Shown piece after piece: positions 6,930 through 56,500 of a DNA stretch of 64,000 nucleotides (the stretch's first letter is position 1; each line of letters starts with the position of its first letter). Below the pieces are notes generated by a model that saw only the letters and a program-made list of their open reading frames with translations, did not search any database and was not told the origin of the DNA. A program made the translations under genes and the position numbers. This DNA comes from Albugo candida (taxonomy: Eukaryota). The stretch covers positions 62,001 through 126,000 of the forward strand of contig JBDOQK010000064.1 of the NCBI GenBank assembly GCA_040437565.1. The letters are read 5' to 3'.

Positions 6930-7358
6930 GAGGCCAAGAGAACAGGTCGATGGGAGAGAGTGATAGTCGCGTTACTACGACAATTGTCACAAAAACGATA
7001 CAAAAATAAACAAATGCGTTTGGCTTTTCCCGTCGAAAATCCAATTTTCAACCCTATTTCGACGATCGTGCGATCTGCTCGATAGAACGATTGGTCGACA
7101 TTGAGAGCGGAGAGTGCTACGAGGAATACGTCGGCCATAATTTCCCATCATGTCGAATACTCCATTCCTCTGTGGCAGTCGATATCGTGGCACAATACGT
7201 ATTTCCGAGTCGTTCGACTTTTTNNNNNNNNNNNNNNNNNNNNNNNNNNNNNNNNNNNNNNNNNNNNNNNNNNNNNNNNNNNNNNNNNNNNNNNNNNNNN
7301 NNNNNNNNNNNNNNNNNNNNNNNATAGAACGATTGGTCGACATTGAGAGCGGAGAGTG

Positions 7359-8616: not shown

Positions 8617-8935
8617 CGTGTTCGTTTTCGATAATCTTGCAACTCTGCACGTTCTACAAGCAGATCTACGAGGATAGCATTGCCAAGTAATTGATTTTTT
8701 TTGTGGCGTTCGGTATCGAGCCTAGTATGATGNNNNNNNNNNNNNNNNNNNNNNNNNNNNNNNNNNNNNNNNNNNNNNNNNNNNNNNNNNNNNNNNNNNN
8801 NNNNNNNNNNNNNNNNNNNNNNNNNNNNNNNNCATTTCGAATGTGCATAGCGAAATAATTGTGTTCTTTGAGCGCTTTTTATCGATCAGAATTTTGCCGT
8901 GTTTAGTGGTTTCCTACTCCAAAGTAATTGCTACA

Positions 8936-10463
8936 ATGAGCCAATTTGCGCATGGAATCAGTTCGATGGATTGGTCGGCTCTTTCGGATCCGAATTACAG
9001 CCGCAATCCCTCCAAATTGCTGTTGCTGGGAGATTGTTATTCACCTCAAGATTTCGACACTCTCGATTGTCTGAAACACGCGTATCACAACGCATTCGAA
9101 TCGATTCTGTGGTATACGTATCGTCGTGATTTCGAAACGATGACGCCGTACGAGTTCACAAGTGATNNNNNNNNNNNNNNNNNNNNNNNNNNNNNNNNNN
9201 NNNNNNNNNNNNNNNNNNNNNNNNNNNNNNNNNNNNNNNNNNNNNNNNNNNNNNNNNNNNNNNNNNTTGTTATTCACCTCAAGATTTCGACACTCTCGAT
9301 TGTCTGAAACACGCGTATCACAACGCATTCGAATCGATTCTGTGGTATACGTATCGTCGTGATTTCGAAACGATGACGCCGTACGAGTTCACAAGTGATG
9401 CCGGATGGGGTTGCATGCTGCGCTCAGCACAAATGTTACTTAGCGAAGCTTTCAAAAGGAATATGCTTGGAATGAAATGGAAATTAAACGCAACATCGGA
9501 GGATTCAGAATTACCCAAAGCGTACGTGAAGCTTCTCACGTGGTTTGTGGACTCTTTCGATACTGAATGCAAGTATTCCATCCATAATATAACTCGAATC
9601 GGAATGCAATATGACAAGCTACCGGGAGAGTGGTATGGTCCTACTACAGCAGCACAAGCGATGCGTGATCTGGTGAATCTTCATGCCCAAGAATCGTCGG
9701 AATGCAATCTGGTGATGTATGTCCCGCAGGATGGTGTGGTTTACACAAAAGATGTCCATGCACTTTGCATTTCGCATTTGGATCACGAAAATACTTTTGA
9801 GGAGTTGGAGACTGAGAATCATAGTGATGGTAATTTTCCAGATCCCTTGCTTCGCCCGCCTACAGATAGTGATAATAGCGAGAAGACGTGGCAAAAATCG
9901 TTACTTATTCTCATTCCACTACGCTTGGGATTGGATTCTATCAACCCGAGGTATTTGCCAGCAATCCAACGAGTCTTTGAATTTCCACAGAGTGTAGGAA
10001 TTATCGGTGGAAAGAAAGGTCATTCTGTGTACTTTGTGGGCACATTCAATTCAAAATTACAACTATTGGATCCTCACGATATTCATCCCACCGCCGATCT
10101 GAATGCGGCTTTTCCAACAGCGGTACGCTCTATTGGGTGACAAGTATGTGATGTATCTGATCTTTCTTATCGCAGACGCACATCCGGACAGTCCATTCAC
10201 GGCTTCCTTTAGAGATGGCATTAGGCAGTATCGATCCATCACTGGCTCTAGGATTCTATTGCAGTGATCGAGAAGACTACCTGGACTTTGTCGATCGAGT
10301 GGATCGTGTGCAAAGCGAACTCTGTGGAGCGCTTCCATTCTCAATCGCAAAAGCGCGACCGAATTATGACTCGACAAACATTCTGCATACAATGAGTGAT
10401 TGTTGTCTGTCTGATGAGTGTGGTGACGAACAAGTACAAGAAGATGAGTATGTTTTACTGTAA
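8936..10463 (+). CDS. ATG4: Autophagy cysteine protease ATG4 (peptidase C54); spans a gap with duplicated flank; intron about 10123-10175
   Basis: WYTYRRDF, SDAGWGCMLRSAQM (catalytic Cys), GEWYGP, PLRLG, LDPH and SIDPSLALGFYC. Confidence 0.95.
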
Positions 10464-21590: not shown

Positions 21591-23122
21591 TCAGAAATAG
21601 GATTGGAGCTCGCCCCGTCTCCGTATGTCGACTGTGGCACAATGGAAGGATCCTCCGAACGGCATAAAATTTCGGAAAGGTACCGGAATCACCTCAAATC
21701 CCCAACTCCGAAACGCTTCCTGAGCACGTTTCTCATGAGCTTCAACAATGAGTGTACCAGGACGAAGTACCAAGACATTACATGTCGCAGTCCACGGACT
21801 CGTGAAAAACAGCGGGTGATCCTTTGAGAGCTCTGGCTCTGGTGCAATAAAAATCTCCCATCCTCGAAACATTTCTGGCAATCGGTACTCGTAGTTTCTT
21901 CCATTGAACGTGTACGTTTTCATTGGTACACCAGTGGTACAAGGTCGGAACGGATTGACTAAAATCTGACCGGGACGTAAGGGCACAAACGTCCCATCAA
22001 TATGCATCGCATTTCGATCTTGGAAATCTAGCACGTGGATTTGATACTTGTCGCCGAGATGTCGGCGAAGCCAATTGATTCCAAATTCATTAGTCACCTG
22101 GCTTCTTTGAGTGAATATGTCACGACCCATGCGCGTGAATTCGGCTGCATCAAACGTAGGCTCAAATTCTGTGATCACAGACTTCTCGTTTGATTAGAAG
22201 GGAAAGGAACGGATACTAACACTTGCCTCAAATGCTCCGTTCTCCGGCTTCCAGTTTTCATTGTATAACTCGTTACTCATTTGAGGCTTGGGTGCAGCTG
22301 TCCAATGTGCTCCTTGCTGGTGCACGTAATTAAAAGACATCCTTTCAGATAAGTCAAGTACCTTGAAATATTCTTTGATGAGATTTCTGTAAGGACGATA
22401 TTCAAAAAACCGTGATCGCCAGGCCATCGGTGCCTCCATGATCTCGTCTCCAAATACGATCAAAACATCGCGGGGCATAGCCCCATACAATTGAGAAGAA
22501 CATTTGAAATCCGGTGTTTGAATTGGGGTTGAAAAATCTTTGGGCTGTGTGGATGGTCGCCGGACAACGACTCCTTCATCTTGCAAAACTTTGGCGAGGT
22601 GGTCCAATTCAGCTTGAGCACCTNNNNNNNNNNNNNNNNNNNNNNNNNNNNNNNNNNNNNNNNNNNNNNNNNNNNNNNNNNNNNNNNNNNNNNNNNNNNN
22701 NNNNNNNNNNNNNNNNNNNNNNNTTGAGAAGAACATTTGAAATCCGGTGTTTGAATTGGGGTTGAAAAATCTTTGGGCTGTGTGGATGGCCGCCGGACAA
22801 CGACTCCTTCATCTTGCAAAACTTTGGCGAGGTGGTCCAATTCAGCTTGAGCACCTTTTATCAAATCGCTGGGAAACTGATGACCAGATTCGTTTTTGAA
22901 CATATTCCACCATTTAGGCGGCCAGACAGCTTTTCCTGCCACATGCCATTCCGGGATAGTAGCTCCTTCGACTCGACCGACAATGACCTCTTCCAATGGA
23001 TCCCACTCGTTGTGTGAATTGACACCAGTGGAAATTGTAGCGGCTTGTAATCTATAAAGTGGGATAGAAGCTCTAACATGAAGATATCGATGTGGTAACG
23101 TAGCAGTCCCAAATGCATGCAT
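21591..23122 (-). CDS. GATM: L-arginine amidinotransferase (glycine amidinotransferase family); two short introns and a gap with duplicated flank
   Basis: [56 protein letters not shown] and [15 protein letters not shown], containing the Asp-His-Cys catalytic triad. Confidence 0.93.
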
Positions 23123-23384: not shown

Positions 23385-24058
23385 ATGGAGCAAGAGCTTC
23401 TACATATGTTTCAGAGCATCACAACATCGGATCACGACGAACTAGTAGATCAATTCGCGTTCCTATTACAAACAGATGTATCGACTGCCAATTTTTTTCT
23501 GGAATCTTCCAACTGGAATGTGGAAACAGCTGCAAACATGTATTTATCGACAGTATATACATCGGACGGTGCAAGAAATGAATCACTCGAAACAGAGCCG
23601 CCGGAAAATTCCGACTGCACGCCCATGGACATCGTGGACACCAACACTTTGCAAGGAATGATGATCACTGATCTTTCAGAATCGTCACGAAAAGTATTCG
23701 CACCGGGATCAAATGTGACGATGGTAGCATCATGTGTATTGAAGCTCTTGAGAAAGGTTTCTAAGCAGTCCGTTTGTAGAATTGGACATTTGTAAACAGC
23801 GGGGAAGTCGACTGGCCGCTGGACACAGAGTTAGTTTGCATCCAAGGCCAGCATATTTGCAATCAAGAAGCTATTCCCGTAATGGCAAGGGCAAAAGAAA
23901 CCGTTCACGTCCCAATTTCATTGTGTATGCCATCTCATAGAGAAACAATCTCCAGCTGTTGGCGACTGCGCTCCGTGCGAAATGAGGTGTACTTTATTGA
24001 ACCTATTTGGCTAGTACTCAGCGTAGGAGATCCGGCAGACTGCATGGTAGATAACTGA
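23385..24058 (+). CDS. ILRUN/C6orf106-like protein (UBA-like plus NBR1 FW domain); intron about 23724-23780
   Basis: FQSITTSDHDELVDQF..FFLESSNWNVETA UBA-like N-terminus. Exon 2 reads WTFVNSGEVDWP..CWRL..FIEPIWLVLSV (FW domain). Confidence 0.85.
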
Positions 24059-24152
24059 AATGCTAGATCATGTTATATCTGTTACCAGACTGCCAGTGTC
24101 ACAAAGTATCAAGTATACAAATACTAAGATCAATTCGGATCATTTTCCTCCT

Positions 24153-25439
24153 ATGAACCTTTTTATAGCGACACCTCGAGGAGAAGATACAATTACATGC
24201 GATCCAGCGTCGACGACAGTCTCTCAGTTACAGTACTTAATAACACAGAAATATCGCATCCCCACCAATGAGTATTTCCTCCAATTTGCGACGAAAATTC
24301 TTTCTTCAAAGGACCGCTTTTTAAGTTACTACAGAATCCAGCATGGTNNNNNNNNNNNNNNNNNNNNNNNNNNNNNNNNNNNNNNNNNNNNNNNNNNNNN
24401 NNNNNNNNNNNNNNNNNNNNNNNNNNNNNNNNNNNNNNNNNNNNNNNATTCGGATCATTTTCCTCCTATGAACCTATTCATTGCGCAACCTCGGGGAGAA
24501 GATACGATTACATGCGATCCAGCGTCGACGACAGTCTCTCAGTTACAGTACTTAATAACACAGAAATATCGCATCCCCACCAATGAGTATTTCCTTCAAT
24601 TTGCGACGAAAATTCTTTCTTCAAAGGACCGCTTTTTAAGTTACTACAGAATCCAGCATGGTGACCGTATCCACGTACAACTGCGGCTATGTGGCGGTAT
24701 CGATTACCAAAATCGAGTGGGATCAAAGCCCGGCTCTGGCGGTGTTGCTTCAGAGTCACAAGCGAACATTGATCGTCGCGAACGTTTGCGCAAATTAGCG
24801 TTGGAAACCATTGATTTATCGAAAGATCCTTATTTTATGAAAAATCATCTAGGATCGTATGAGTGTAAATTATGTCTGACACTCCACAACAATGAAGGCA
24901 ATTATTTGGCGCATACGCAAGGAAAGCGTCATCAGACGAATTTAGCACGTCGGGCTGCAAAAGAAGCATCGGAAGCAGCAAATTCCATCGCACAAGCCAA
25001 TTTTCTGGAAGCGACTGCAGCAGCAGCAGCCGCAGCGGCTCGACCAAGACCATTACGCATCGGATTGCCGGGCTATAAAGTCATGAAACAGCGGGATCCA
25101 GATACCAATGCGCGGATGCTGACCTTTCAAATTTTATATCCCGAATACGACCGGAAGCTTCAACCGCGCCATCGCTTCATGTCAGCTTATGAGCAGAAAA
25201 TCGAGCCCGCAGATAAGAATTATCAGTACCTTTTGTTTGCATGCGAGCCGTACGAAACGATCGGATTCAAAATTCCCAATTTGGAACTCGATCGACGCAA
25301 AGAAAAGTTTTTCAGTAATTGGGATAAAGAGGGGAAAACATTCACATTGCAATTATCATTTGCAGCGGAATCGGACGATCAAAACGAGTTACAGCCTCCG
25401 GCACCACCGCCCCCGCGACCTCAACTGCGATTCTTATAG
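24153..25439 (+). CDS. SF3A2: Ubiquitin-like domain fused to splicing factor 3A subunit 2 (SF3a66/Prp11); 5' part duplicated across the gap (ATG 24153 and 24468)
   Basis: DRRERLRKLALETIDLSKDPYFMKNHLGSYECKLCLTLHNNEGNYLAHTQGKRHQTNL (matrin-type zinc finger), PRHRFMSAYEQ and QYLLFACEPYETI identify SF3A2. It is preceded in frame by a 77-aa Ub-like unit ending LRLCGG (24468-24698). Confidence 0.95.
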   Translation: MNLFIATPRGEDTITCDPASTTVSQLQYLITQKYRIPTNEYFLQFATKILSSKDRFLSYYRIQHGXXXXXXXXXXXXXXXXXXXXXXXXXXXXXXXXXXSDHFPPMNLFIAQPRGEDTITCDPASTTVSQLQYLITQKYRIPTNEYFLQFATKILSSKDRFLSYYRIQHGDRIHVQLRLCGGIDYQNRVGSKPGSGGVASESQANIDRRERLRKLALETIDLSKDPYFMKNHLGSYECKLCLTLHNNEGNYLAHTQGKRHQTNLARRAAKEASEAANSIAQANFLEATAAAAAAAARPRPLRIGLPGYKVMKQRDPDTNARMLTFQILYPEYDRKLQPRHRFMSAYEQKIEPADKNYQYLLFACEPYETIGFKIPNLELDRRKEKFFSNWDKEGKTFTLQLSFAAESDDQNELQPPAPPPPRPQLRFL

Positions 25440-25525
25440 AAACTAACAAGTCAAATTGTTTTTTTCAAATGCATTCTTCATTAACAGTTAATGAAGAAGA
25501 CTGGAATCGTTTTAAGATCTGCGAG

Positions 25526-26964
25526 TTACATTGCCGGGAACTCGGACACGAAGTCCAAGCTGATCTTAGACAGATGAGATATGACTTCACGAATTCCGTT
25601 ATAGAAACTTGTTTCGTGGTACGGGACTTCGTATTCCAAGCAAAATGACTTGACCAAATGATTAAGCTTTTTCAAATTGTGTCGAGGAATCGTTGGAAAC
25701 AAATGATGATCCACCTGATAATTGAGACCGCCAGTGAACCAATCGCACCACAAAGAGCTGGTAATGTTGCGTGTTGTAGTGACTTGAAGCTCCCAGAATT
25801 TGGGTTGAGTCGACCGCTCATATACAGCCATTCCATTGTGGCCGATGCTGAAGACTAGAGCCAGTAAAATTCCACAGGTTGCCTGACTCAAAAAGAACCA
25901 AGCGATTGATTGCCATATTGTCATCCCACAATGATACATTACAGCAAAATTCCACGCGTAATGTGCGAGTAGCCCGCTTTTCTCGGCCCATGGGAACGGA
26001 GATGGGTCATAAAACCCAAATGAGAAGCCTCGGAAGACGTATAGAAGCGATTGTAACAACCAACTCACTCGAGCAAAGAGAATCAATGGAAAATAGAAAA
26101 AGGCTTGGTACTGTACAAGGAAAGCCCCCAATGAAGAAGCATGAGCTTTACGAGCCATATCAATGGACCAAGCGATAAGCGGCATCGTATCGATATCAGG
26201 ATCACCTGAGAAGCCTTCCTGATGGATGGAATGAAGATTTGGTACGGCGTGGTGGGTGTTATGTTTGGTCTTCCACCACTGCACACTGAAGCCTTGCCAC
26301 ACATTACCTACAATTGCTCCCAAGTAATATCGCACTGAAGAATGCTTCACAACTTGATGATGAAGAACGTCGTGGGATAACCACCCAGACTGCTGGTAAA
26401 ACAGCCCCATGATGGCTGCTGAGAGGGTGTAGCCGCTCATGCCAGAGCTCAGGTAGCATACTGCGACGGAGAGGAACCAAATGGCTAGGGTGCTTGTAGT
26501 TTTCCAAATATAATATTGCAAACTGAAAAGAAAGTAATTTGTAAGGGTACTTTTGCAAATATTTCATTTTGTACCAACCTTGTTTTGTAAAGTCCCAATG
26601 ATCGAACGGTTGCACGCAGTTGGCGATACGCCGCAACAAACTCTTGATGCTCTTTTTGATACCGTTTCACTCCGGAATCATACTCAGACTCAGAGGAAGA
26701 TGACTTGATGGAAATGACTTCGCCGATATAAAATTGTTTCAATAGCTGGAACGCATGGGCAGGATGGAATATTGCAAACACGTCGGTCGCATCGGTACCT
26801 GCATGTGTGTACATCACTGATCCCCCAGGATGTGCATTAAAATTAGTTATGTCATAGACTTTATTGTGGATGACAATCCAAGCATCCTTTGGGGAATTAT
26901 GCGCGCGTACTTGGTCCCACGTAAGCACCGACTGTTTTGGTGATAAACTGCTGTATTGGCACAT
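25526..26964 (-). CDS. Front-end (delta-6-type) fatty acid desaturase with cytochrome b5 domain; intron 26523-26578
   Basis: HPGG cytochrome b5 motif and His boxes HDVLHH, HNTHH and QVDHH. The GT-AG intron restores YKTS|LQYYIWK. Confidence 0.93.
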
Positions 26965-28182: not shown

Positions 28183-29711
28183 CTATACTTGTTTAGCGGC
28201 GAGAAGTTGACTCTGTGTAGCGATAGCTTCCTTCAACAGTTGCGGATGGGCAGGGGGGTTTTCAGTACTGAATGGCAATCGCTCACTATCGATTTCATAT
28301 ATATATTGTCTGGGCTGTGTCGGATCGGCGCCATCGAACCAAAGAGTCATTACGCCATCGTAGTTTCTATTAGTTACTTTCTCGATCATTTTCATTTGAT
28401 GACGCTTGAGAAATGTGGCGCCTATGATCCATTCATGGAGGCTACCATCCATGACTGGTTTGAGTGCCAAGGAGCATATTGAGTTGACTGCTTCGTCAGC
28501 TCCTTCTTTGTTGGGTATCTCCACAATATATTCCTCACTTGTGAGCCGATACGTCCGACCTACTAGCATGATTTTCATGAATGGCATTGCTTCATACACG
28601 TTAGGGTTGCATTGAAAAGTTACGCGGTTATCATGCGAGACAGTGACAGAATTTTTGTCAATGAGTTTCTCAACTTTACTCACGAGATATAAGAAAACAA
28701 TTTCTGGGATCTCGCTCAAAAGTCTCCCAAAATCGAAAAGTACCTTTTCCACTCCATTCAAACCCAACTCCGTATTCAACTCTTCACGATCAAACTTGAC
28801 ATAGCCCTCAAAAGGACCGATCGTGATAGCATTATTGCTGGGTTCCTGTGGCCACTTGTGCTCCAGAGTCACCAATCCTAAAATTTGCATGTGCAGGCTC
28901 CTTGGAATACTTTCGACGTACAATCGAGGACCATTGGATGTCTCCCAATTGAAAGTGAAAACCATGTCTTTTTTCTTGTGTCTTTTCAATTCGCATTGAA
29001 ATAATGTAAATAATAATTCACTCGATATTACGAGATTCTCCAAACATTCCGAATTAGAGGGGTTAACCTCCGAACGAGTCATTGCGTCCGAATCTCTTGA
29101 GTGTGATGATTCTGACTTCAAGAAGCTAGATTGACATAAGAGATTGCCGGCTATTGTATTAGTATGCCGAATAAAAGGAGCGTCTTTAGATTTTGCTTCA
29201 TCTAAGACTTCACGACGATTTTTCAATGAAAGAGTCAACAAACTGCCCTTTCACTTCCTTCCATCCACGTAGTTGCTTATAGGAACCTTCCAAGTACTTT
29301 TCCAGGTCCACGTACTTTTTGGGGTCTTTTGTGCTGACAGCACTATCACGCTTTCCACGTAATTGGAAGGATGCTCGAGCACAATTAATGTAAAGATATC
29401 TCGAGCGTATGATATTCGAATTTGCTGGCATANNNNNNNNNNNNNNNNNNNNNNNNNNNNNNNNNNNNNNNNNNNNNNNNNNNNNNNNNNNNNNNNNNNN
29501 NNNNNNNNNNNNNNNNNNNNNNNNNNNNNNNNACTTCCTTCCATCCACGTAGTTGCTTATAGGAACCTTCCAAGTACTTTTCCAGGTCCACGTACTTTTT
29601 GGGGTCTTTTGTGCTGACAGCACTATCACGCTTTCCACGTAATTGGAAGGATGCTCGAGCACAATTAATGTAAAGATATCTCGAGCGTATGATATTCGAA
29701 TTTGCTGGCAT
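28183..29711 (-). pseudogene. Degenerate pepsin-fold (A1 aspartic protease-like) protein with an apparent frameshift at 29219-29223
   Basis: C-lobe motifs VLFDFG, FQC..MPFMKI..GRTYRLTSEEYI, CSLAL and WIIGATFLKRH. The 5' part lies in another frame and is duplicated across the gap. Could be an intact gene with a homopolymer sequencing error. Confidence 0.6.
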
Positions 29712-32630
29712 AGAAAGTGAGCGCAAATTCGAAATACGCCACTTCTCATGCTGTAAAAATTGCAAATGAATGCTCCCTCTCTTGAGCTCTGTCGCACTTA
29801 TAGATGGTGTGGGAAAGCGGAAAAGGAGATGCCAACACTTGGCAGATGGCTAGAAAGTATAGAATTTTACTGGCCTTATAAAGAATATGTTTGCGTTGCA
29901 TAGATGTGCAAAACGTGGACTTCGTGGGAATCTTGCTTCTAGAATGCTCTGCGGTGATTGTGTAAAGTGGTCTATCTAATTAACCGATATAAAGCAAGAT
30001 GTGCGTTACGCTAAGATTAGGATCCCATGTAAGAAACGATGCTAGGACAACACATGCACGATCTGGTCGCAATAAAGCAGCGCCACCAGTCAATTAAACA
30101 TCTACGCGACAGCAATCTTGATATGGAATCGCCGTACATCGTTACGACCTTCGGCAAGATTGTTGTTGCATGGATGTATAATTGACTGGCGACGCTGCTT
30201 TATTGCAACCTGATCCTGCATGTGTTGCCCTAATATCGATCCAACTGATATATATGGAAAGTACTTTTTTNNNNNNNNNNNNNNNNNNNNNNNNNNNNNN
30301 NNNNNNNNNNNNNNNNNNNNNNNNNNNNNNNNNNNNNNNNNNNNNNNNNNNNNNNNNNNNNNNNNNNNNNGATCTGGTCGCAATAAAGCAGCGCCACCAG
30401 TCAATTAAACATCTACGCGACAGCAATCTTGATATGGAATCGCCGTACATCGTTACGACCTTCGGCAAGATTGTTGTTGCATGGATGTATAATTGACTGG
30501 CGACGCTGCTTTATTGCAACCTGATCCTGCATGTGTTGCCCTAATATCGATCCAACTGATATATATGGAAAGTACTTTTTTATGTCTCTCCTTCAGAAGT
30601 GGGACACAGCCGACTTTCTAGAAATAGATGCGCATCAGCAACGGGATCAGATAAAGATATAGAATACGTAATATTTAGTGTGTACACACCACGGTCAGGC
30701 AAGTCTCAATTTCGATTCATGTAGACCACAATGAACGAGCTGACGTGTGCCTTGACACTGGCGGCTTGCTCACGATGCGATTATGTGCACAGACAATAAA
30801 ATCTTTACATGCGCTCATATTGCTTTTCTAGCATACATGATCAATGATGACCAAGTCGAGTATTACTAGATCACTGCTATAAATCTCCAAAATGAAGTTC
30901 TTTGCCAAGGAGTCAGTACTGAAGCAAAGGCTATCGGTAACCCGCCAGATACATTGCTGATCAGTATGTACACGCTTCATTAGATAACTCAATTGAAAAA
31001 CACATCTATGCACGGCTGCATGATCAATGATTGATATCGAGCACTATGCACCTCCTACTCATTTGAAGTACAGATATCTTATTCACTCCTGGAAAGGTCT
31101 TTTCAAGTACAACCGCCGGCTACTTCGGGTTGTTCGGGTCCTATGACTGCAAATGTAAAAATGCAGTAAATAAGATTCTCTCTGGACCTGTTTCATGGAA
31201 AGATATATGCACTCCCTATTTAACGATACGCGTGACCTTAGCTTGAGATGGACACAGAACCATGGAATGACGAATAATGACACAGTCAGCGACCTTAGCT
31301 CCTTCAGCGGCAATGTTTGACATTCCTATTACTGGCTGTAAGAAGGCCGCAACACTTCAATAGGAGCAGAGCTACCAACCTACCTAAACAGATCAACTCT
31401 GCGGTACACATTCCTTTTCTAAAACGAATTTTCGTTACCATATTCAACAATAGTGTGCAAGTGCTCCGAGTTGTACGCAAAAGTTTTTAAATCCGAGACC
31501 AGCATGTGGACATCGCGACAGCCACAGCTTTGTAAACGACCATGGTTGTGTTGGTTCTTTTCGTAACATATCCGACGTTTACTGCATTTATCCTTTCCCT
31601 TGGCGAGGTCAACATCACGTCCGGTGTAATCAATTGATACTGTTATGACAAAAGTAAGTAAACGGATAGAATCGGGTGCGTTCTTTAAGTTTAGTCGCAA
31701 ATGCAAGGGTTGACTGCGATCAGGAGCAACCCCAGTTTCTTCGCAGACGTCACTATGACACGTGGAGCTACAAAAAGAATTGGTGTCTCACTTCAAATTA
31801 GTAGCAGCTGTAGATGCGCGATAATGAGTTTGACTCGCAAATATTTCGTTTTGCACCGACGGATATGATACACGCTATAAATGCATTGACAGAATTTGTA
31901 CATTAGCATTCATGTTTATAATTGCAAATTCTCATATAGTATGAAAGCACATTGAACGCTACAAGCTTTTTGTTTCAGCATCAATCAATCATGTTGTAGT
32001 AATTCTTTACAGAGGTCGCTCGATTATAAACGATGGGGAGAAATTATTAAACATGTAATTACTAGACTGCACAAGATGTGTCGTTCAGACCATTAAAGAC
32101 AGCGATAAGTGGTATAATTACGATTTCCAATTATAGACCGCGTGTTACATGGGTAAAGGCATACCAGTGTGTGTATATCTCATTTTGACAGACGACCCAT
32201 AAGTCGAGAAACGTGAAAATACGTTTATGCAAGTACTTGCGAGAACGATTTAGCAGTATATGGTAATCTTCACACTTTCCACGAATCCTCTGTACGGACA
32301 GAAGAACCATTCATTTGCACCCAGATAAAGATGACATGGTAATAAACAAGGCTTGACGACTTGTCTGATTTTATCCCCGGAGAATTTGATTATTTAGAAG
32401 ACGTTGATCAGTAAGAAGAGGAAGCACAAGCGCCCATATCAACAAATTAAGAATCAAAAATTGACTATCGCATTTATCGCTTCTGAGACAATCTTTTCTG
32501 TTCGTAGACTGCCACGAAAAAAATGATCCTCACTCCAACTCAACACCTTTCGGTAAAGCTTCATCGACATGCCGATTGCTGATAAACCGACTGACCCGGG
32601 AGTGCGTATAACGCTACCTTCCACATGATG

Positions 32631-37050: not shown

Positions 37051-37399
37051 AATAGGGCGACTCTTATAAAACGTATACCAAGTCAACGTAATCAGATTGT
37101 GCACAACAATTATACGTGCGAGACGTATAGAATCAAACNNNNNNNNNNNNNNNNNNNNNNNNNNNNNNNNNNNNNNNNNNNNNNNNNNNNNNNNNNNNNN
37201 NNNNNNNNNNNNNNNNNNNNNNNNNNNNNNNNNNNNNNACCAAGTCAGCGTAATCAGATTGTGCACAACAATTATACGGGCGAGACGTATAGAATCAAAC
37301 AAACCATCTGGCGCAAACTTCGGCTAAATAGTATACTTGTGCTATTTATAGCATGGAACGACTCCTCCAAATGCGCGGTCTGCCTCAACGGATACGGAT

Positions 37400-39784: not shown

Positions 39785-40987
39785 AATCGTTCAAATTCTT
39801 CAATTTGTGAAACAGATGGTAGTCGCGACTTGAAATGGAAAGTCTCGTCTTGAGATTGTAGAATCTGATTTCGTGATTGGCTACAATAGCANNNNNNNNN
39901 NNNNNNNNNNNNNNNNNNNNNNNNNNNNNNNNNNNNNNNNNNNNNNNNNNNNNNNNNNNNNNNNNNNNNNNNNNNNNNNNNNNNNNNNNNNCTCGTCTTG
40001 AGATTGTAGAATCTGATTTCGTGATTGGCTACAATAGCAATGCCGACAAGTGCGTCTGGTTGGAGCGCAGCGTCGGCGAGTCAGCGCGTGTCATAGAATG
40101 GATGTGCTCGATAACGATGCGTTTTGACAATCAACACCTCCTCATTTAACAGAACAGACATTTGTTTCTCACACATGCTTAATCATCCTTTATGGCTAGA
40201 AGCATGCCCTATACGATGTGGTCCACCCCAACGTGATCCCAAACAAGAAAGCCATTTCTATCAGTTTGCAACGGAGCGTACCGTACATACTCAGAAGTGG
40301 AAAAGCTCGAGCCCATTCNNNNNNNNNNNNNNNNNNNNNNNNNNNNNNNNNNNNNNNNNNNNNNNNNNNNNNNNNNNNNNNNNNNNNNNNNNNNNNNNNN
40401 NNNNNNNNNNNNNNNNNNTATCAGGCTGCAACGGAGCGTACCGTACAGACTAAAGCTCGAGCCCATTCGATTGGCTGTTATTTGATTTTCCCGCGACGGA
40501 AACTTGCGTGCTGTTATGATTCATACTCGCTGGAAAGAATGCAACGTGGGACCGAAAGTTGTAAGGTGTAGGGTCGTAAACATATAAGAATTCAAGTGAA
40601 ATTATCACCATGGCAACTCAGAAAGTCTTTTAAGAATTGTATCGCGCAAATCGTATTGCAGCGTGTCCTCATCATCCCACATTTAATTCTGGGTCAAGTT
40701 TCGCAAGCCTAATCCTGGTGATAACTGATTCGATTCTATACTTTCGACGCTCTTTTCAGCCAATAAACTTCCTTATCCAGTTCGAATTTTGCATCTTCAA
40801 TCATAAAAGCAACTTTTCCACTCGTAAAACGCTATTGAGTCCAACTGATGCACAACTTCGAAGCAATGTCAATTGCCTTACACTTGATCAAAGTATTGAA
40901 TTCTGTAGAGAATATCCATATTTGGGCACACCGTATATTTGCCAAAAGATTCTCTCTGATCCGACTTTTGTTTACAATCTAATTCAT

Positions 40988-41960: not shown

Positions 41961-42283
41961 AGATGCCCGATTCAATTATTGACCAGAGCATAATATAATC
42001 TTGAGCCTCTTCCATTTCGATATCACAATATGAGCTTCTATACAGAAAGCAAGTCTAAATTTCAATTCGGTCNNNNNNNNNNNNNNNNNNNNNNNNNNNN
42101 NNNNNNNNNNNNNNNNNNNNNNNNNNNNNNNNNNNNNNNNNNNNNNNNNNNNNNNNNNNNNNNNNNNNNNNNTATGTATGATATAATGACATGAGTCTGG
42201 ACGCTCAAACATTGATCGATTAGAAACTTAACGGTGTCTCTTAAGTATTACCACCAATCACTTCTTTCATCATTAACAACCAA

Positions 42284-47293: not shown

Positions 47294-48181
<888 letters not shown>

Positions 48182-53500: not shown

Positions 53501-56500
53501 CCGTAAAGCAAAACTGAGCATTGTCGGAACAGTTGCGAATGTTTGTCCAACTGTTCCACTTGATTGAGCAACTATTTCTATTCCATCATTTGTTTNNNNN
53601 NNNNNNNNNNNNNNNNNNNNNNNNNNNNNNNNNNNNNNNNNNNNNNNNNNNNNNNNNNNNNNNNNNNNNNNNNNNNNNNNNNNNNNNNNNNNNNNAATAT
53701 GTCTCCCTTCCGTGCGAGTGGCAAGCGTCAGATTATACAGAGCGCGAAGACTCAGTTGCCGTATCTCGGGGCTGCTTTGACTCGTGGAAAGCTTGAAAAG
53801 TGAAAAGAAGACTCCACGTCGGATCATCTCATTGTGTCTCGCCTCGTTTGCGAGTAAGTTAAATAGAGCCTTGGCTCCAACTTGCTTGATTAAAATGCCA
53901 TTCACGCGTAAGAGAATCATCACGGTGAAGTCTTCAATCGTGTCCGCCAGCCAGATATCCCTGACACCGTCCGCTACGAATGCACTGGCAAGGTTACAGA
54001 TGCATACAGACCCATACAGCTGAGCAGCAGGAAGTCCAGATCGAAGAATAGAGTTCAGAGTAGTCAAAATACTGGAACAGGCCATGCAGGTAGTGAGACC
54101 TTGTTGGGTGACACAAAGTCTTGCAAGAATCAGAGCACAATGCATGTTTGCAGCGTTGCGCAGATCACGCTCTTCCTTTGTGCATTGAGAAGTTTTCTTC
54201 ACCACGTGACTTGCTATCAATACGACCGATGCAACTAAGCAAGCAAGCGTCGATTGATCCGACTGGGCTCGTGCTTCTTGAACTCTAGGATGTTTGAGCA
54301 CTATCGGCTGTAGTTGATGCAGTAGTTTGACGGACATGTAATAAAATTCTTCAACCAAAGCGTTTTCATCTGTTCCTCGTTTACGAATATCCTTTGACGC
54401 AAGGCTAATAGCATGATGGAGTACTTCCACAAGGTCCTGCTCTAACAGCTGATGGCTGTTCTCTATGTCAATAGCAAGATTAGATAATGTCTGTAGACTC
54501 AGGAGCCACATGGAATACGTCTCAATCGCTTTTGTACTCTCCACTTGTCTCAATACGTTGACGAGAAAGAGCTCAACGTGTTCACTATACAAGACGGAAT
54601 AGTTGTCAGGCTGGGCAGAAAGTTCATAAAAGAATTCGAGACAGTTGCCACACAGTGGAACGTTTCCAACATTCCGTAAAGCAAAACTGAGCATTGTCGG
54701 AACAGTTGCGAATGTTTGTCCAACTGTTCCACTTGATTGAGCAACTATTTCTATTCCATCATTTGTTTGTCCCACTCTTGTAAGTTGCCCTCTAAGCGCT
54801 GCATCTTTTGCAATCAAAAGCATTGCATGAATACAGGCGCACTGGATTTCCATGTCTGTTCTTGACGATGACACCTTGCAGATCAATGAGAAGAAAGTCG
54901 GTATCACACCTTCTTGCACAACTTGATGGAAATTTTTGGTGCTGAGCATCAACTGACTGAGCGCCACAACGCAATCTAGCTTCAAAAGAAGCATTGCTTC
55001 CTGGTGTTTCAGAGTGTCATACCAATCGGCTGACTGTAGTGAGCGCAGTAGTAGAGACACACTTCCTGCATGTAATACGGGTTCTCGACAACGATCCTCC
55101 AAAGCGAGGTTCGCAAGACATATAAAGCAAAGCTTCTCGCTTTCGTGAAATTTCTCAAAATACTCTGAATCCTTCCGGTTAATCTGACTCAAGGCAGCGA
55201 TAATGTAATCAAGGACCCAATCTGTATCTGTGAGACGCGTCTTTAGTCGAGCATTGCCACAAAAATATGCTAAAGCCATCAAGCAATTCTTTTGAATTTC
55301 TTTCGCCGAACCCGGTCGTCCAGCCTTCAAGATGACATTTTCCTTGATCTCATTGCCTTCCGTATCATTTTGAAGGGACCGTAAAGGGTCTGAAAACTTT
55401 TTAAGTAGGGAGAAAGCCCCTTGTTTCACCATAACTTCCTGATTCCCTGTAAATGCTGACAGGTTGCACAACACGCAGCTCATGATGTATCGTACCTGCA
55501 AGCTTTCAGAGTCAGATAAGGAAGCAATCGATGTCATTGCCCCATCTTCAATCAACGTGGACCGTGTTGTCACGAGGATGGACAGATTCAAGAGGCCTTG
55601 TGCCAGATTAAGTTCTCGAGTCTCATCCGCTGGCAAACGATCGTCTGTACCAAGCGATTCGTCTTTTCCTCTTAGAAGCGTTGCCAAAGTGGATAACATA
55701 CTGTCACATGAAACTGCCCTAGGGATTTCGGCCAAATTGATCAAAGCATTCAGACAGGCTTGACGTACGTCACTAGAATTAGTGGACATGGTCATCATTT
55801 GCGACAAAACCAGAGCTCCTCCATCATGAACGACACGAGAATGATACAATTCGTCCGTTGTAAATCGTAAAAGCATTCTCGCACAGAAAGTTTTAATAAA
55901 AAACGGGAATTGTTGCGTGACGATATGAGACAGCTCGACGATCATCGTCACGATCCCTTCCTCTAGAAGCTTTGTGTAAATCTCTTTGTTTCTCGTGCAA
56001 GTCATATTAAACAAAGTTGCAGCCGTATACAAGCGAATGAAAGGATCCTCCATTTTGGACAGGATCGTTAGAGTTGATAATGCACCTTCGTGGAGTAATT
56101 GATTCTCTGAGCCATCAAGACACGACAAGCTATGCAATCCTTGCACACATTTCTGCTTGAGTTCCTTTGAAAGACTTCCAATCTGTTGACTTGTGAGCCC
56201 GGTTGTATTCAGCGGAGATACTGGTGCAAGAGTTGGGCAACTAGCACTTCCACGGAGCAAGTTGAATGCGCCATTTTCCTTTTCTATGTGCATCCCTTTA
56301 TCTTTCAACTCCTCCTCAACAAAGTTCTGAGCATTGTTTACAGGCTCCGTGATACTTTCGGACCTTTCATTGTGAGCTTGTAAAGTCTCCAAATTGGGCA
56401 TCCATTTAGACCTGTCAATGCGAGATAAATAGAGCATACCTTCGTCGTATGTGCCCCGCTGATAAAACAAGTCGGCCTTTCCTCCGACCCGTCTGTTCGT

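What the first reader, a model, noticed from the sequence alone, without database searches (positions are those of the whole stretch)
24468..25439. SF3A2 encoded as a ubiquitin-like precursor fusion (UBL-GG|SF3A2)
Seen: a 77-aa domain (MNLFIAQPRG..TVSQLQYLI..IP..LQFATKIL..LSYYRIQHGDRIHVQLRLCGG) has ubiquitin-like length and hydrophobic pattern and ends in a di-Gly. It is fused without stop or intron to IDYQNRVGSKPGSGG, which aligns with the usual SF3A2 start (MDFQHR..KTGSGG), with Ile in place of the initiator Met. Known: Ub/UBL-GG fusions such as Ub-eL40, Ub-eS31, FUBI-eS30 and the splicing factor Sde2 are cleaved after GG by deubiquitinase-type proteases. SF3A1 has a C-terminal UBL, but I do not know of SF3A2 carrying an N-terminal one. 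Inference: the U2 snRNP subunit is matured by proteolysis, exposing an N-terminal Ile (a possible N-degron) and releasing a new UBL that might itself be conjugated.
Basis: partly seen in the sequence, partly recalled or inferred. Interest (0 to 1): 0.85.

Follow-up and report, generated by a model that had tools for sequence, protein, structure and literature searches.

The report
Ubiquitin-like precursor of splicing factor SF3A2
In this oomycete, and in its relatives the diatoms and brown algae, the core splicing protein SF3A2 is encoded with a ubiquitin-like domain ending in Gly-Gly fused directly to its first residue, so it is probably made as a precursor that a ubiquitin-specific protease must trim.

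Summary
Window 24468-25439 (+) is one intron-free 323-aa ORF. Residues 1-77 are a ubiquitin-family domain ending LRLCGG: Pfam PF00240 scores above its cut-off, AlphaFold2 predicts a beta-grasp fold, and the model superposes on ubiquitin at TM about 0.9. Ile78 aligns with Met1 of human SF3A2, and a complete SF3A2 follows.

The fusion is not a local oddity. It occurs in 17 named stramenopiles (five oomycetes; xanthophyte, brown, raphidophyte, pelagophyte and synurophyte algae; a diatom) and in many unnamed sequences. Of 118 distinct sequences with an N-terminal extension of 50 aa or more, 106 have GG directly before the residue aligned to Met1. That residue is I, M, V or L. Two unnamed lineages carry canonical ubiquitin there (76/76 and 74/76 identical). 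All 116 sequences without an extension start with Met.

Cleavage after GG by a deubiquitinase is the best reading, at about 0.7, but it is inferred. Papers state that the SF3A2 N-terminus reaches into the spliceosome active site.

A new conjugatable modifier looks unlikely, because the UBL evolves fast. An N-degron role is possible but not conserved.

Ten literature searches found no description. I file it as a new member of the ubiquitin-fusion precursor class.

An assembly gap with an allelic duplicate lies just upstream.

The parts
24468..24698 (+). Ubiquitin-like domain, residues 1-77, starting at ATG 24468 and ending LRLCGG
   Evidence: Translation. Pfam PF00240 33.4 bits against cut-off 25.4. 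AF2 pLDDT 87-94 over residues 1-70 with beta-grasp secondary structure. Foldseek matches to ubiquitin chains at TMt 0.86-0.91, rmsd 1.2-2.2 A. 31/78 identical to ubiquitin.
24693..24698 (+). Gly76-Gly77 codons (ggc ggt), the proposed cleavage site lying immediately after them
   Evidence: Sequence. GG lies directly before the residue aligned to Met1 in 106 of 118 sequences with an extension of 50 aa or more, and in 88 of 88 de-duplicated GG tails by construction.
24699..24701 (+). ATC, Ile78, at the position of the initiator Met of canonical SF3A2
   Evidence: phmmer alignment: query 78 = human SF3A2 residue 1. All 116 extension-free SF3A2 sequences have M here. I, V and L occur only behind an extension.
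24699..25436 (+). SF3A2 proper, residues 78-323
   Evidence: E 2.3e-87 to human SF3A2 (5z56_v) and 1.8e-15 to yeast Prp11 (5gm6_I). 236/246 identical to Albugo laibachii F0WD56.
24858..24932 (+). Matrin-type C2H2 zinc finger, residues 131-155
   Evidence: Pfam zf-met PF12874, 30.6 bits against cut-off 21.2.
25059..25343 (+). SF3A2 beta-sandwich domain, residues 198-292
   Evidence: Pfam PF16835, 122.7 bits. AF2 pLDDT 89-94.
25437..25439 (+). TAG stop codon
24348..24447 (.).
   Evidence: It is one of 14 gaps of exactly 100 N in the window.
24133..24347 (+). Second, allelic copy of 24448-24662: 20 nt of 5' flank, ATG at 24153 and the first 65 codons, with Thr7 in place of Gln7. The gene's true 5' flank lies upstream of it.
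   Evidence: 8 mismatches in 215. Translation. Public-run contigs and P0003 carry this version without duplication.

Best explanation
The gene encodes a precursor in which a diverged ubiquitin is fused head-to-tail to the U2 snRNP subunit SF3A2. The ubiquitin keeps the beta-grasp fold and the L-R-L-x-G-G tail.

Shown:
- The fusion is real and is a single ORF.
- It is shared by oomycetes and ochrophyte algae.
- The di-glycine abuts the exact position of SF3A2 residue 1.

Inferred:
- A ubiquitin-specific protease cuts after Gly77, co- or post-translationally. This releases a 77-aa UBL and mature SF3A2 that starts at Ile78.
- Removal is needed because the first residues of SF3A2 thread into the active site of the activated spliceosome, where they help hold the 5' splice-site G1. 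A globular domain attached there with no linker would not fit.
- The UBL most likely acts in cis, as a disposable folding or expression aid, as proposed for ubiquitin on eL40 and eS31. It probably gates entry of SF3A2 into the snRNP, and it is not a new modifier.
- Once translation starts at the UBL, the old initiator Met is free to drift to Ile, Val or Leu. In those species the fused ORF is then the only way to make the conserved N-terminus.
For: **The domain**
- Ubiquitin family by Pfam, above the cut-off.
- Confident beta-grasp model.
- Foldseek TMt 0.86-0.91 to ubiquitin.
- 40% identity to ubiquitin, with L71-R72-L73-x-G75-G76 and K48 kept.

**The junction**
- Ile78 aligns to Met1 of human SF3A2.
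- Residues 78-95 are low-confidence and extended in the model, so the junction is accessible.

**Conservation**
- 106 of 118 distinct sequences with an extension of 50 aa or more have GG directly before the Met1 position.
- 6 of the other 12 still carry a GG one to three residues upstream.
- 5 of the 12 are non-UBL gene-model merges.
- Tail consensus over 88 distinct tails: P6 L in 51, P5 R in 44, P4 L/V/I in 83, P2 and P1 G.
- Diatoms keep ...RLLGG|IDRQNR even though Pfam no longer detects the domain.

**Canonical ubiquitin at the same junction**
- P0013 is 76/76 identical and P0308 is 74/76.
- Linear ubiquitin-X fusions are cleaved by general deubiquitinases unless X is Pro. This is recalled textbook knowledge.

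**Controls**
- All 116 extension-free SF3A2 sequences start with M.
- In 52 metagenome loci with the motif, 47 start at M with no long upstream ORF. 5 are continuous UBL-SF3A2 ORFs at the DNA level.

**Why removal would matter**
- Prp11 and Cwc24 cage the 5'ss G (PMC5688998, passages).
- SF3A2 and CWC24 shield the 5'SS (PMC10208982, passages).

**Precedents**
- Sde2 is a spliceosomal UBL-GG|K precursor cut by Ubp5/Ubp15 (PMC9508853, passages).
- Ubiquitin may act as a cis chaperone for eL40 and eS31, and ubiquitin-actin and ubiquitin-P1 fusions exist in Bigelowiella (PMC6721733, passages).
Against: - No direct evidence of cleavage exists: no proteomics, and no RNA run for this organism.
- The window's UBL has lost all three residues of the ubiquitin L8/I44/V70 patch (P8, Q44, Q71). 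Many ubiquitin-binding enzymes use that patch (recalled), so a general deubiquitinase may not recognise it and a dedicated one may be needed.
- 12 of 118 extended sequences lack GG at the exact junction. One has YAG. GGA and GGSRG variants would leave extra residues on SF3A2.
- The counts include related sequences and cluster members, so they are not independent events.
- Gene models of Phytophthora, Plasmopara, two Pythium species and Aphanomyces have no UBL. The UBL is therefore dispensable, or those models are truncated.
- The steric argument comes from human and yeast structures and was not modelled here.
- The diatom extension gave no confident fold (pLDDT 25-44).
Confidence: 0.72

Rival explanations
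1. The UBL is never removed. It is an integral N-terminal domain of stramenopile SF3A2, used as an interaction or RNA-binding module, as the C-terminal UBL of SF3A1 is.
For: SF3A1 in the same complex carries a permanent UBL, as stated in abstracts listed (PMC8833184, PMC6795144; listing only). The window's UBL lacks the L8/I44/V70 patch. Nothing here shows cleavage.
Against: Permanent UBL domains have no reason to keep a di-glycine at the exact boundary, yet 106 of 118 do, even where the rest of the domain has diverged beyond Pfam detection. Two lineages use canonical ubiquitin. There is no linker between GG and the residues that enter the spliceosome active site. The domain evolves fast and tolerates insertions of hundreds of residues in diatoms.
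Confidence: 0.17
2. Cleavage occurs, and its main purpose is to expose a destabilising N-terminal Ile (an Arg/N-degron type-2 residue). Unassembled or surplus SF3A2 would then be short-lived, as with Lys-Sde2-C. This does not exclude the best explanation.
For: Ile is the commonest residue after GG: 74 of 106, or 63 of 88 distinct tails. [quoted passage not shown] That I and L are destabilising is recalled knowledge.
Against: 28 of 106 keep Met and 3 have Val. Met to Ile is a single-base change (ATG to ATH) that becomes neutral once the codon no longer initiates, so drift explains the pattern equally well. The N-terminus is buried in the spliceosome, but this says nothing about the free protein.
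Confidence: 0.2
3. Cleavage occurs and the released 77-aa UBL is a new conjugatable modifier with its own targets.
For: A free C-terminal GG would be produced. K48 is kept. Where the moiety is canonical ubiquitin (P0013, P0308) it would join the ubiquitin pool.
Against: UBL identity is 51/77, against 236/246 for the cargo, between two Albugo-type sequences. The L8/I44/V70 patch is lost. Diatoms carry huge insertions. No short free-standing protein shares three 5-residue words with it, although that search has limited sensitivity. Known modifiers are among the most conserved proteins (recalled).
Confidence: 0.08
4. The fusion is an artefact of assembly or annotation: a UBL gene joined to SF3A2 across the nearby scaffold gap.
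For: A 100-N gap and a duplicated segment lie immediately upstream.
Against: The junction at 24693-24701 lies 245 nt inside uninterrupted sequence. Single contigs of three public runs span 24448-25600. The same fusion is present in 17 named species, in transcriptome-derived proteins and in 5 metagenome loci.
Confidence: 0.02

Closest known systems
Ubiquitin-ribosomal protein fusions Ub-eL40 and Ub-eS31 (yeast Ubi1-3, human UBA52/RPS27A)
   Same: An N-terminal ubiquitin ending in GG is fused with no linker to the first residue of a small, basic, zinc-binding subunit of a large RNP. Ubiquitin is proposed to act as a cis chaperone and must be removed for function (PMC6721733, passages).
   Different: The cargo is a U2 snRNP protein, not a ribosomal protein. 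In most lineages the ubiquitin moiety has diverged; the window's is 40% identical. The fusion is restricted to stramenopiles, with some unnamed lineages, and is not pan-eukaryotic.
Sde2 (UBL-GG|K-Sde2-C)
   Same: A spliceosomal protein is made as an inactive precursor with a diverged N-terminal UBL. Deubiquitinases cut it after GG, and the new N-terminus matters for function and turnover (PMC9508853, passages). Pfam gives a weak sub-threshold match of the window's UBL to Sde2_N_Ubi_yeast (E 0.1).
   Different: The cargo is unrelated. Sde2 has an invariant Lys after GG, whereas here the residue is I, M, V or L. Sde2 is widespread in eukaryotes, whereas SF3A2 is unfused outside this lineage.
FUBI-eS30 (FAU)
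   Same: A diverged ubiquitin-like moiety with GG is fused to an RNP subunit and removed by specific deubiquitinases, USP36 and USP16 (PMC10611586, abstract in the listing only).
   Different: The cargo and the lineage differ. No dedicated protease is known here.
Lineage-specific ubiquitin fusions to actin and ribosomal P1/P2 in chlorarachniophytes (Bigelowiella)
   Same: They are precedents for ubiquitin fused to unusual cargo in a protist lineage (mentioned in PMC6721733).
   Different: The cargo and the lineage differ. Those fusions use canonical ubiquitin.
C-terminal UBL of SF3A1
   Same: It is a ubiquitin fold in the same SF3a complex.
   Different: It is C-terminal and permanent, and per the abstracts listed it binds RNA. 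It is not a GG-terminated precursor.

Membership tests
SF3A2 / Prp11 (U2 snRNP SF3a subunit 2) | Conserved N-terminal motif (M)DFQNRxGxKxGxGG, aligned from residue 1 | tested here: met
   IDYQNRVGSKPGSGG at residues 78-92 aligns to human residues 1-15.
SF3A2 / Prp11 (U2 snRNP SF3a subunit 2) | Matrin-type C2H2 zinc finger | tested here: met
   PF12874, 30.6 bits against cut-off 21.2, residues 131-155.
SF3A2 / Prp11 (U2 snRNP SF3a subunit 2) | SF3A2 beta-sandwich domain (PF16835) | tested here: met
   122.7 bits against cut-off 27, profile positions 1-96 of 96. Top Foldseek hits are SF3A2 chains of human spliceosomes.
Ubiquitin family (PF00240, beta-grasp) | Profile match above the curated cut-off | tested here: met
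   29.6 bits (whole protein) and 33.4 bits (77 aa alone) against 25.4.
Ubiquitin family (PF00240, beta-grasp) | Beta-grasp fold | tested here: met
   AF2 gives E2-7, E10-15, H23-34, E41-45, H57-60, E67-72 at pLDDT 87-94. TMt is 0.86-0.91 to ubiquitin chains. This is a prediction, not a solved structure.
Ubiquitin family (PF00240, beta-grasp) | Hydrophobic L8/I44/V70 recognition patch of ubiquitin proper | tested here: not met
   The alignment gives P8, Q44 and Q71 at these positions. The domain is therefore ubiquitin-like, not ubiquitin.
Ub/UBL-fusion precursors processed by deubiquitinases | The UBL sits at the extreme N-terminus and ends in GG directly abutting the cargo's first residue | tested here: met
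   G76-G77 is followed by I78, which equals Met1 of SF3A2.
Ub/UBL-fusion precursors processed by deubiquitinases | GG conserved among orthologues | tested here: met
   106 of 118 extended sequences. G76 and G77 are invariant in the 32-sequence alignment A2, but A2 was picked from GG-bearing forms, so that adds nothing.
Ub/UBL-fusion precursors processed by deubiquitinases | The residue after GG is not Pro | tested here: met
   I 74, M 28, V 3, L 1. That Pro blocks cleavage is recalled.
Ub/UBL-fusion precursors processed by deubiquitinases | The precursor is actually cleaved in cells | not testable with these tools
   No proteomic data were available. No run on record as RNA holds the stretch.
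Conjugatable ubiquitin-like modifiers | High sequence conservation and a dedicated E1/E2 cascade | tested here: not met
   Conservation is low: 51/77 identical against 236/246 for the cargo. Diatom forms carry large insertions. The enzymes were not searched for, because no genome is held.

The most novel reading that the evidence does not exclude
In a whole eukaryotic supergroup branch (oomycetes, diatoms, brown and other ochrophyte algae), spliceosome function depends on a proteolytic licensing step. The SF3A2 N-terminus, which plugs the active site and holds the 5' splice-site guanosine in the activated spliceosome, can only be generated by a deubiquitinase cutting a UBL-GG precursor. This yields a non-Met (Ile) N-terminus that also marks unassembled subunits for N-degron turnover. 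It would be a second, independent Sde2-like 'ubiquitin-fold activation' of splicing, and a natural experiment on why RNP subunits are made as ubiquitin fusions.
Probability: 0.3. Interest if true: 0.8.

Novelty: new member of a known kind. Interest (0 to 1): 0.62.

Why it matters
Natural N-terminal ubiquitin or UBL fusions that are processed to release a functional cargo are very few: eL40, eS31, eS30, Sde2 and a handful of protist oddities. Why evolution keeps them is still debated, with cis-chaperone, stoichiometry and N-terminus generation as the candidate reasons.

A second spliceosomal example would give an independent test case. This one is conserved across lineages as far apart as oomycetes and diatoms, and the very N-terminus of its cargo enters the spliceosome active site.

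The test case comes with built-in natural variation:
- the moiety ranges from canonical ubiquitin, through a diverged UBL, to an insertion-bloated UBL;
- the new N-terminus is Ile, Met or Val;
- the UBL is apparently lost in Phytophthora-type gene models.

The fusion is also a candidate rare genomic change for stramenopile phylogeny. For genome annotators, it is a warning that homology-guided gene models may truncate the UBL.

Tried and rejected
- **RNA evidence.** The look-up of sequencing runs listed no holder on record as RNA. Read laying gave only contigs, probably DNA, which span the gene but say nothing about transcription. Expression in this organism is therefore untested.
- **Own genome.** It is not held. 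I could not look for a second, unfused SF3A2 paralogue or for candidate deubiquitinases.
- **Diatom fold.** The AF2 model of a diatom-type protein (P0154, with a 15-sequence alignment) gave pLDDT 25-44 over the extension. This is no evidence either way. That the extension is a UBL with insertions rests only on reading the sequences.
- **Unfused oomycete models.** I tried to test whether Phytophthora-type models are truncated. The metagenome scan with the P. ramorum protein returned nothing closer than 70% identity, so the question stays open. A 27-member Phytophthora-like cluster (P0049) also starts at MDFQNR. That leans towards real loss but does not exclude an intron.
- **Tree of the SF3A2 part** (56 rows chosen by me out of 384 held). 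All 22 ochrophyte rows are fused and group together at 83/89 support. Oomycetes group at 100/97, with four unfused models scattered among seven fused rows. The backbone is unresolved. The unnamed clade with canonical ubiquitin (P0013) could not be placed, so a single origin is neither shown nor excluded. The tree needs 8 label changes, and starred branches force at least 5.
- **Naming the unnamed fused clusters.** Three cluster look-ups added only Fragilariopsis and Heterosigma.
- **Free-standing copy of the UBL.** No short protein shares three 5-residue words with it. The search has low sensitivity.
- **Upstream in-frame ATG at 24060** (31 extra residues, as in P0003). Rejected as the start, because the Albugo laibachii model and most orthologues begin at the M of the first ubiquitin strand.
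- **P0128.** This metatranscriptome protein has two ubiquitin repeats before SF3A2. It may be a chimeric assembly and I did not use it as evidence.
- **Literature.** Ten full-text searches and a term search in PMC2705460 found no mention of a ubiquitin or UBL fusion to SF3A2, SF3a66 or Prp11. The library holds open PMC papers and bioRxiv only, and supplements were closed. A mention in a subscription paper, a supplement or a database note cannot be excluded.
Full report
**1. The observation**

Window 24468-25439 on the + strand is a single open frame of 323 codons that ends at TAG 25437-25439. Residues 1-77 end ...HVQLRLCGG, with the GG codons at 24693-24698. ATC (Ile78) at 24699 follows, and then DYQNRVGSKPGSGG.

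Pfam places three domains on it:

| Domain | Residues | Score | Cut-off |
|---|---|---|---|
| Ubiquitin family PF00240 | 19-74 | 29.6 bits (33.4 bits for the 77 aa alone) | 25.4 |
| Matrin-type zinc finger PF12874 | 131-155 | 30.6 bits | 21.2 |
| SF3A2 domain PF16835 | 198-292 | 122.7 bits | 27 |

Against the sequences of solved structures, human SF3A2 residues 1-228 align to query 78-314 with E 2.3e-87. Ile78 therefore occupies the place of the initiator Met. Yeast Prp11 matches query 79-274 with E 1.8e-15, and many ubiquitin chains match residues 2-79.

The 77 residues are 31/78 identical to canonical ubiquitin, E 1e-11. That alignment keeps K48 and the tail L-R-L-x-G-G. It replaces the L8/I44/V70 patch with P8, Q44 and Q71.

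An AlphaFold2 model built on a 52-sequence alignment gives pLDDT 87-94 over residues 1-70. Its strand-strand-helix-strand-short helix-strand order is that of a beta-grasp, and a low-confidence extended stretch follows at 78-95. Foldseek superposes this part on dozens of ubiquitin structures at TM 0.86-0.91, rmsd 1.2-2.2 A, over 75-78 columns. The top hits overall are SF3A2 chains of human spliceosomes.

**2.

A scaffold gap of exactly 100 N (24348-24447) lies 20 nt upstream of the ATG. It is one of 14 such gaps in the window. The 215 nt before the gap (24133-24347) repeat the 215 nt after it (24448-24662) with 8 mismatches. They include a second ATG at 24153 and the first 65 codons, with Thr7 in place of Gln7. 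Because Ns translate as X, the ORF listing reports a spurious 459-aa ORF from 24060.

Single contigs from three public runs span 24448-25600. At 7 sites they carry the letters of the upstream copy. A protein called on a Logan contig (P0003, 354 aa) runs from the upstream flank through the Thr7 version straight into the rest of the gene, with no duplication.

The two copies are therefore most likely two alleles of one segment left side by side at a scaffold join. The gene's real 5' flank is the sequence upstream of 24153. The UBL-SF3A2 junction lies 245 nt inside uninterrupted sequence and is unaffected.

**3. The fusion is conserved**

A search with residues 1-125 found the same architecture in these oomycetes:
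- Albugo laibachii (F0WD56, 323 aa);
- Pythium insidiosum;
- Lagenidium giganteum;
- Saprolegnia diclina;
- Thraustotheca clavata.

It also found it in these ochrophyte algae:
- Tribonema minus;
- Heterococcus;
- Phaeothamnion confervicola;
- Chrysoparadoxa australica;
- Chrysophaeum taylorii;
- Mallomonas;
- Fibrocapsa.

Further searches and cluster look-ups added Ectocarpus, Choristocarpus, Discosporangium, Heterosigma akashiwo and the diatom Fragilariopsis cylindrus. I checked the lineages of three of these names; the rest I place from general knowledge. Several of the fused proteins come from MMETSP or EukProt records marked as complete transcripts. In relatives, then, the fused ORF is on mRNA.

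The closest named relative of the window's protein is Albugo laibachii. The window therefore probably comes from another Albugo species.

**4. Counts**

I held 384 distinct proteins by the end. Of these, 257 carry the SF3A2 N-terminal motif with at least one residue before it.

| Extension before the Met1 position | Sequences | What is at the junction |
|---|---|---|
| None | 116 | All start with Met |
| 1-49 residues | 23 | Mostly fragments |
| 50 residues or more | 118 | 106 have GG directly before the Met1 position |

The 12 exceptions among the 118 are:
- GGA, in 2 sequences;
- GGSRG, in 2 sequences of one cluster;
- GG-M plus one inserted residue, in 2 sequences;
- YAG, in 1 sequence;
- 5 extensions with no ubiquitin likeness, which look like merged gene models, one of them a flap-endonuclease fusion.

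After GG the residue is I in 74, M in 28, V in 3 and L in 1. De-duplicating on the last 30 residues leaves 88 distinct GG tails. Their consensus is [L/V/I]-x-L-R-[L/V/I]-x-G-G.

These counts include related sequences and members of the same 90% clusters, so they are not independent events.

As a DNA-level control, 52 of 80 metagenome loci fetched with a Phytophthora SF3A2 contain the motif. Of these, 47 start at Met with at most 55 in-frame codons upstream and no long ORF. The other 5 are continuous UBL-SF3A2 ORFs: four have GG at the junction and one has GGSRG.

**5. How far the ubiquitin moiety has drifted**

Two unnamed lineages carry essentially canonical ubiquitin at the junction. P0013 is 76/76 identical and was seen on several contigs in three sources. 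P0308 is 74/76. Most others share 17-41 of 76 residues with ubiquitin.

In diatoms Pfam no longer detects the domain. By eye, the extensions of 53-340 aa keep these pieces:
- a ubiquitin-like first hairpin (...QILLKTPRGNTAVIPVD...);
- a middle ...YHQGRKLSLD... segment;
- the last strand and tail ...LYLTLSTSVRLLGG|IDRQNR.

Long acidic or low-complexity insertions separate these pieces. A structure prediction for one diatom-type protein was too poor to confirm this.

Between the window and Albugo laibachii the UBL is 51/77 identical and the SF3A2 part is 236/246. The invariant features are therefore the position, the last strand and the di-glycine, not the surface of the domain.

**6. Mechanism**

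The best explanation is that this is a processed precursor. A ubiquitin-specific protease would cut after Gly77 and release mature SF3A2 that begins at Ile78. The steps that are shown are the fusion, its conservation, the GG at the exact boundary and the canonical-ubiquitin variants. Cleavage itself is inferred.

Three arguments support cleavage:
- **The di-glycine.** Permanent UBL domains have no reason to keep a di-glycine exactly at their boundary, yet it outlasts recognisable homology.
- **Canonical ubiquitin.** Linear ubiquitin-X fusions are cleaved by general deubiquitinases in eukaryotic cells unless X is Pro (recalled). The canonical-ubiquitin forms are therefore almost certainly processed, and their relatives probably inherited the habit.
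[quoted passage not shown] Other papers say Prp11 and Cwc24 cage the 5' splice-site G, and that SF3A2 and CWC24 shield the 5'SS (PMC5688998 and PMC10208982, passages). A globular domain joined with no linker to those residues is hard to reconcile with that role. I did not model the clash.

Once translation starts at the UBL, the old start codon is free to change. ATG to ATH gives Ile in one step, which explains why non-Met residues occur only in fused forms. In those species the fused ORF is the only route to the conserved N-terminus. In the window, the next Met is residue 124.

For the purpose of the UBL, I favour a cis-acting folding or expression aid and assembly gate. This is the role proposed for ubiquitin on eL40 and eS31 (PMC6721733, passages).

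**7. Rivals**

- **A permanent N-terminal UBL (about 0.17).** It cannot be excluded without protein data. The loss of the I44 patch in the window's UBL means a general deubiquitinase might not act on it.
- **A selected N-degron (about 0.2, not exclusive of the best reading).** It fits the predominance of Ile and the Sde2 precedent (PMC9508853, passages). It does not fit the 28 Met and 3 Val forms.
- **A new conjugated modifier (about 0.08).** It fits poorly with the fast evolution and the insertions. No short free-standing protein sharing words with this UBL was found, although that search has limited sensitivity.
- **An assembly or annotation artefact (about 0.02).** It is excluded as far as sequence data allow.

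**8. Distribution and open points**

Gene models of Phytophthora ramorum and P. cactorum, Plasmopara halstedii, Pythium oligandrum, [Pythium] brassicae and Aphanomyces euteiches start at MDFQNR with no UBL.

In a tree of the SF3A2 part, these unfused models are scattered among fused oomycetes. For example, P. oligandrum is sister to the fused P. insidiosum, and Aphanomyces is sister to Saprolegnia plus Thraustotheca. This means either several losses or truncated models. All of them, and their fused sisters, have Met after GG, which makes both readings easy. A 27-member Phytophthora-like cluster also starts at Met. I could not fetch those genomes.

All 22 ochrophyte rows in the tree are fused. 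The tree's backbone is unresolved, and the unnamed clade with canonical ubiquitin could not be placed. The age of the fusion, whether it had a single origin, and whether it reaches beyond ochrophytes and oomycetes all remain open.

**9. Comparison with what is known, and novelty**

The system works like the ubiquitin-ribosomal protein fusions, like FUBI-eS30 and especially like Sde2, a spliceosomal UBL-GG precursor activated by deubiquitinases. The window's protein is a member of both the SF3A2 and the ubiquitin families by every feature I could test, except the I44 patch. It meets every sequence-level feature of processed UBL-fusion precursors. The defining biochemical feature, cleavage, is untestable here.

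Known unusual ubiquitin cargoes named in the papers I read are ribosomal P1/P2 and actin in Bigelowiella. Ten full-text searches and one in-paper search found no mention of a ubiquitin or UBL fusion to SF3A2. The library holds only open PMC papers and bioRxiv, and supplements were closed. Databases already show the domain combination for these proteins (the precomputed Pfam columns), so the data are public even if the point is not made in print.

I rate it a new member of a known kind, with interest 0.62. It is real, ancient, lineage-wide and apparently undescribed, and it bears on why RNP subunits are made as ubiquitin fusions. The key step is still inferred.

Noticed in passing
window 7224-7323, 8733-8832, 9167-9266, 22624-22723, 24348-24447, 29433-29532, 30271-30370, 37139-37238, 39892-39991, 40319-40418, 42073-42172, 48048-48147, 53596-53695, 62687-62786: The window holds fourteen scaffold gaps of exactly 100 N. 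At the one I examined, the flanks repeat each other as alleles, with 8 mismatches in 215. Other gaps may hide similar uncollapsed heterozygous overlaps that create false duplications or false ORFs.
   Followed up: partly
window 23385-23795 (+): The ORF directly upstream (136 aa) carries a UBA-like domain: PF14555, 41.8 bits. A ubiquitin-associated domain gene next to a ubiquitin-like fusion gene may be coincidence.
   Followed up: no
window 25526-26440 (-) and 26485-26964 (-): Two adjacent minus-strand ORFs in different frames encode a cytochrome b5 domain and a fatty-acid desaturase domain. Together they look like one front-end desaturase gene, interrupted by a short intron or a frameshift.
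   Followed up: no
proteins P0118, P0303, P0311, P0370 (Fibrocapsa, Heterosigma and relatives) and P0287: Raphidophyte-type fusions end in a doubled di-glycine...GG-L-[K/S]-GG|IDFQ. P0287 ends LRLRGG-LQGG|MDFQ. There are thus two possible cleavage sites four residues apart.
   Followed up: no
protein P0128 (449 aa, metatranscriptome): This protein has two tandem canonical ubiquitin repeats followed by SF3A2. It is either a polyubiquitin-SF3A2 gene or a chimeric assembly through the ubiquitin repeats.
   Followed up: no
proteins P0145, P0151, P0152, P0156, P0283 (diatom-type, JGI): The N-terminal extensions run to 220-340 aa. Long acidic, Ser/Thr-rich or poly-Q insertions sit between segments that resemble ubiquitin strands. 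Pfam finds no domain there.
   Followed up: partly
protein P0001 residues 211-300: There is a sub-threshold Pfam match of the SF3A2 beta-sandwich to the Cactin C-terminal domain: PF09732, E 4.4e-4, 20.7 bits against cut-off 30. Cactin works together with Sde2, the other UBL-activated splicing factor (PMC9508853).
   Followed up: no
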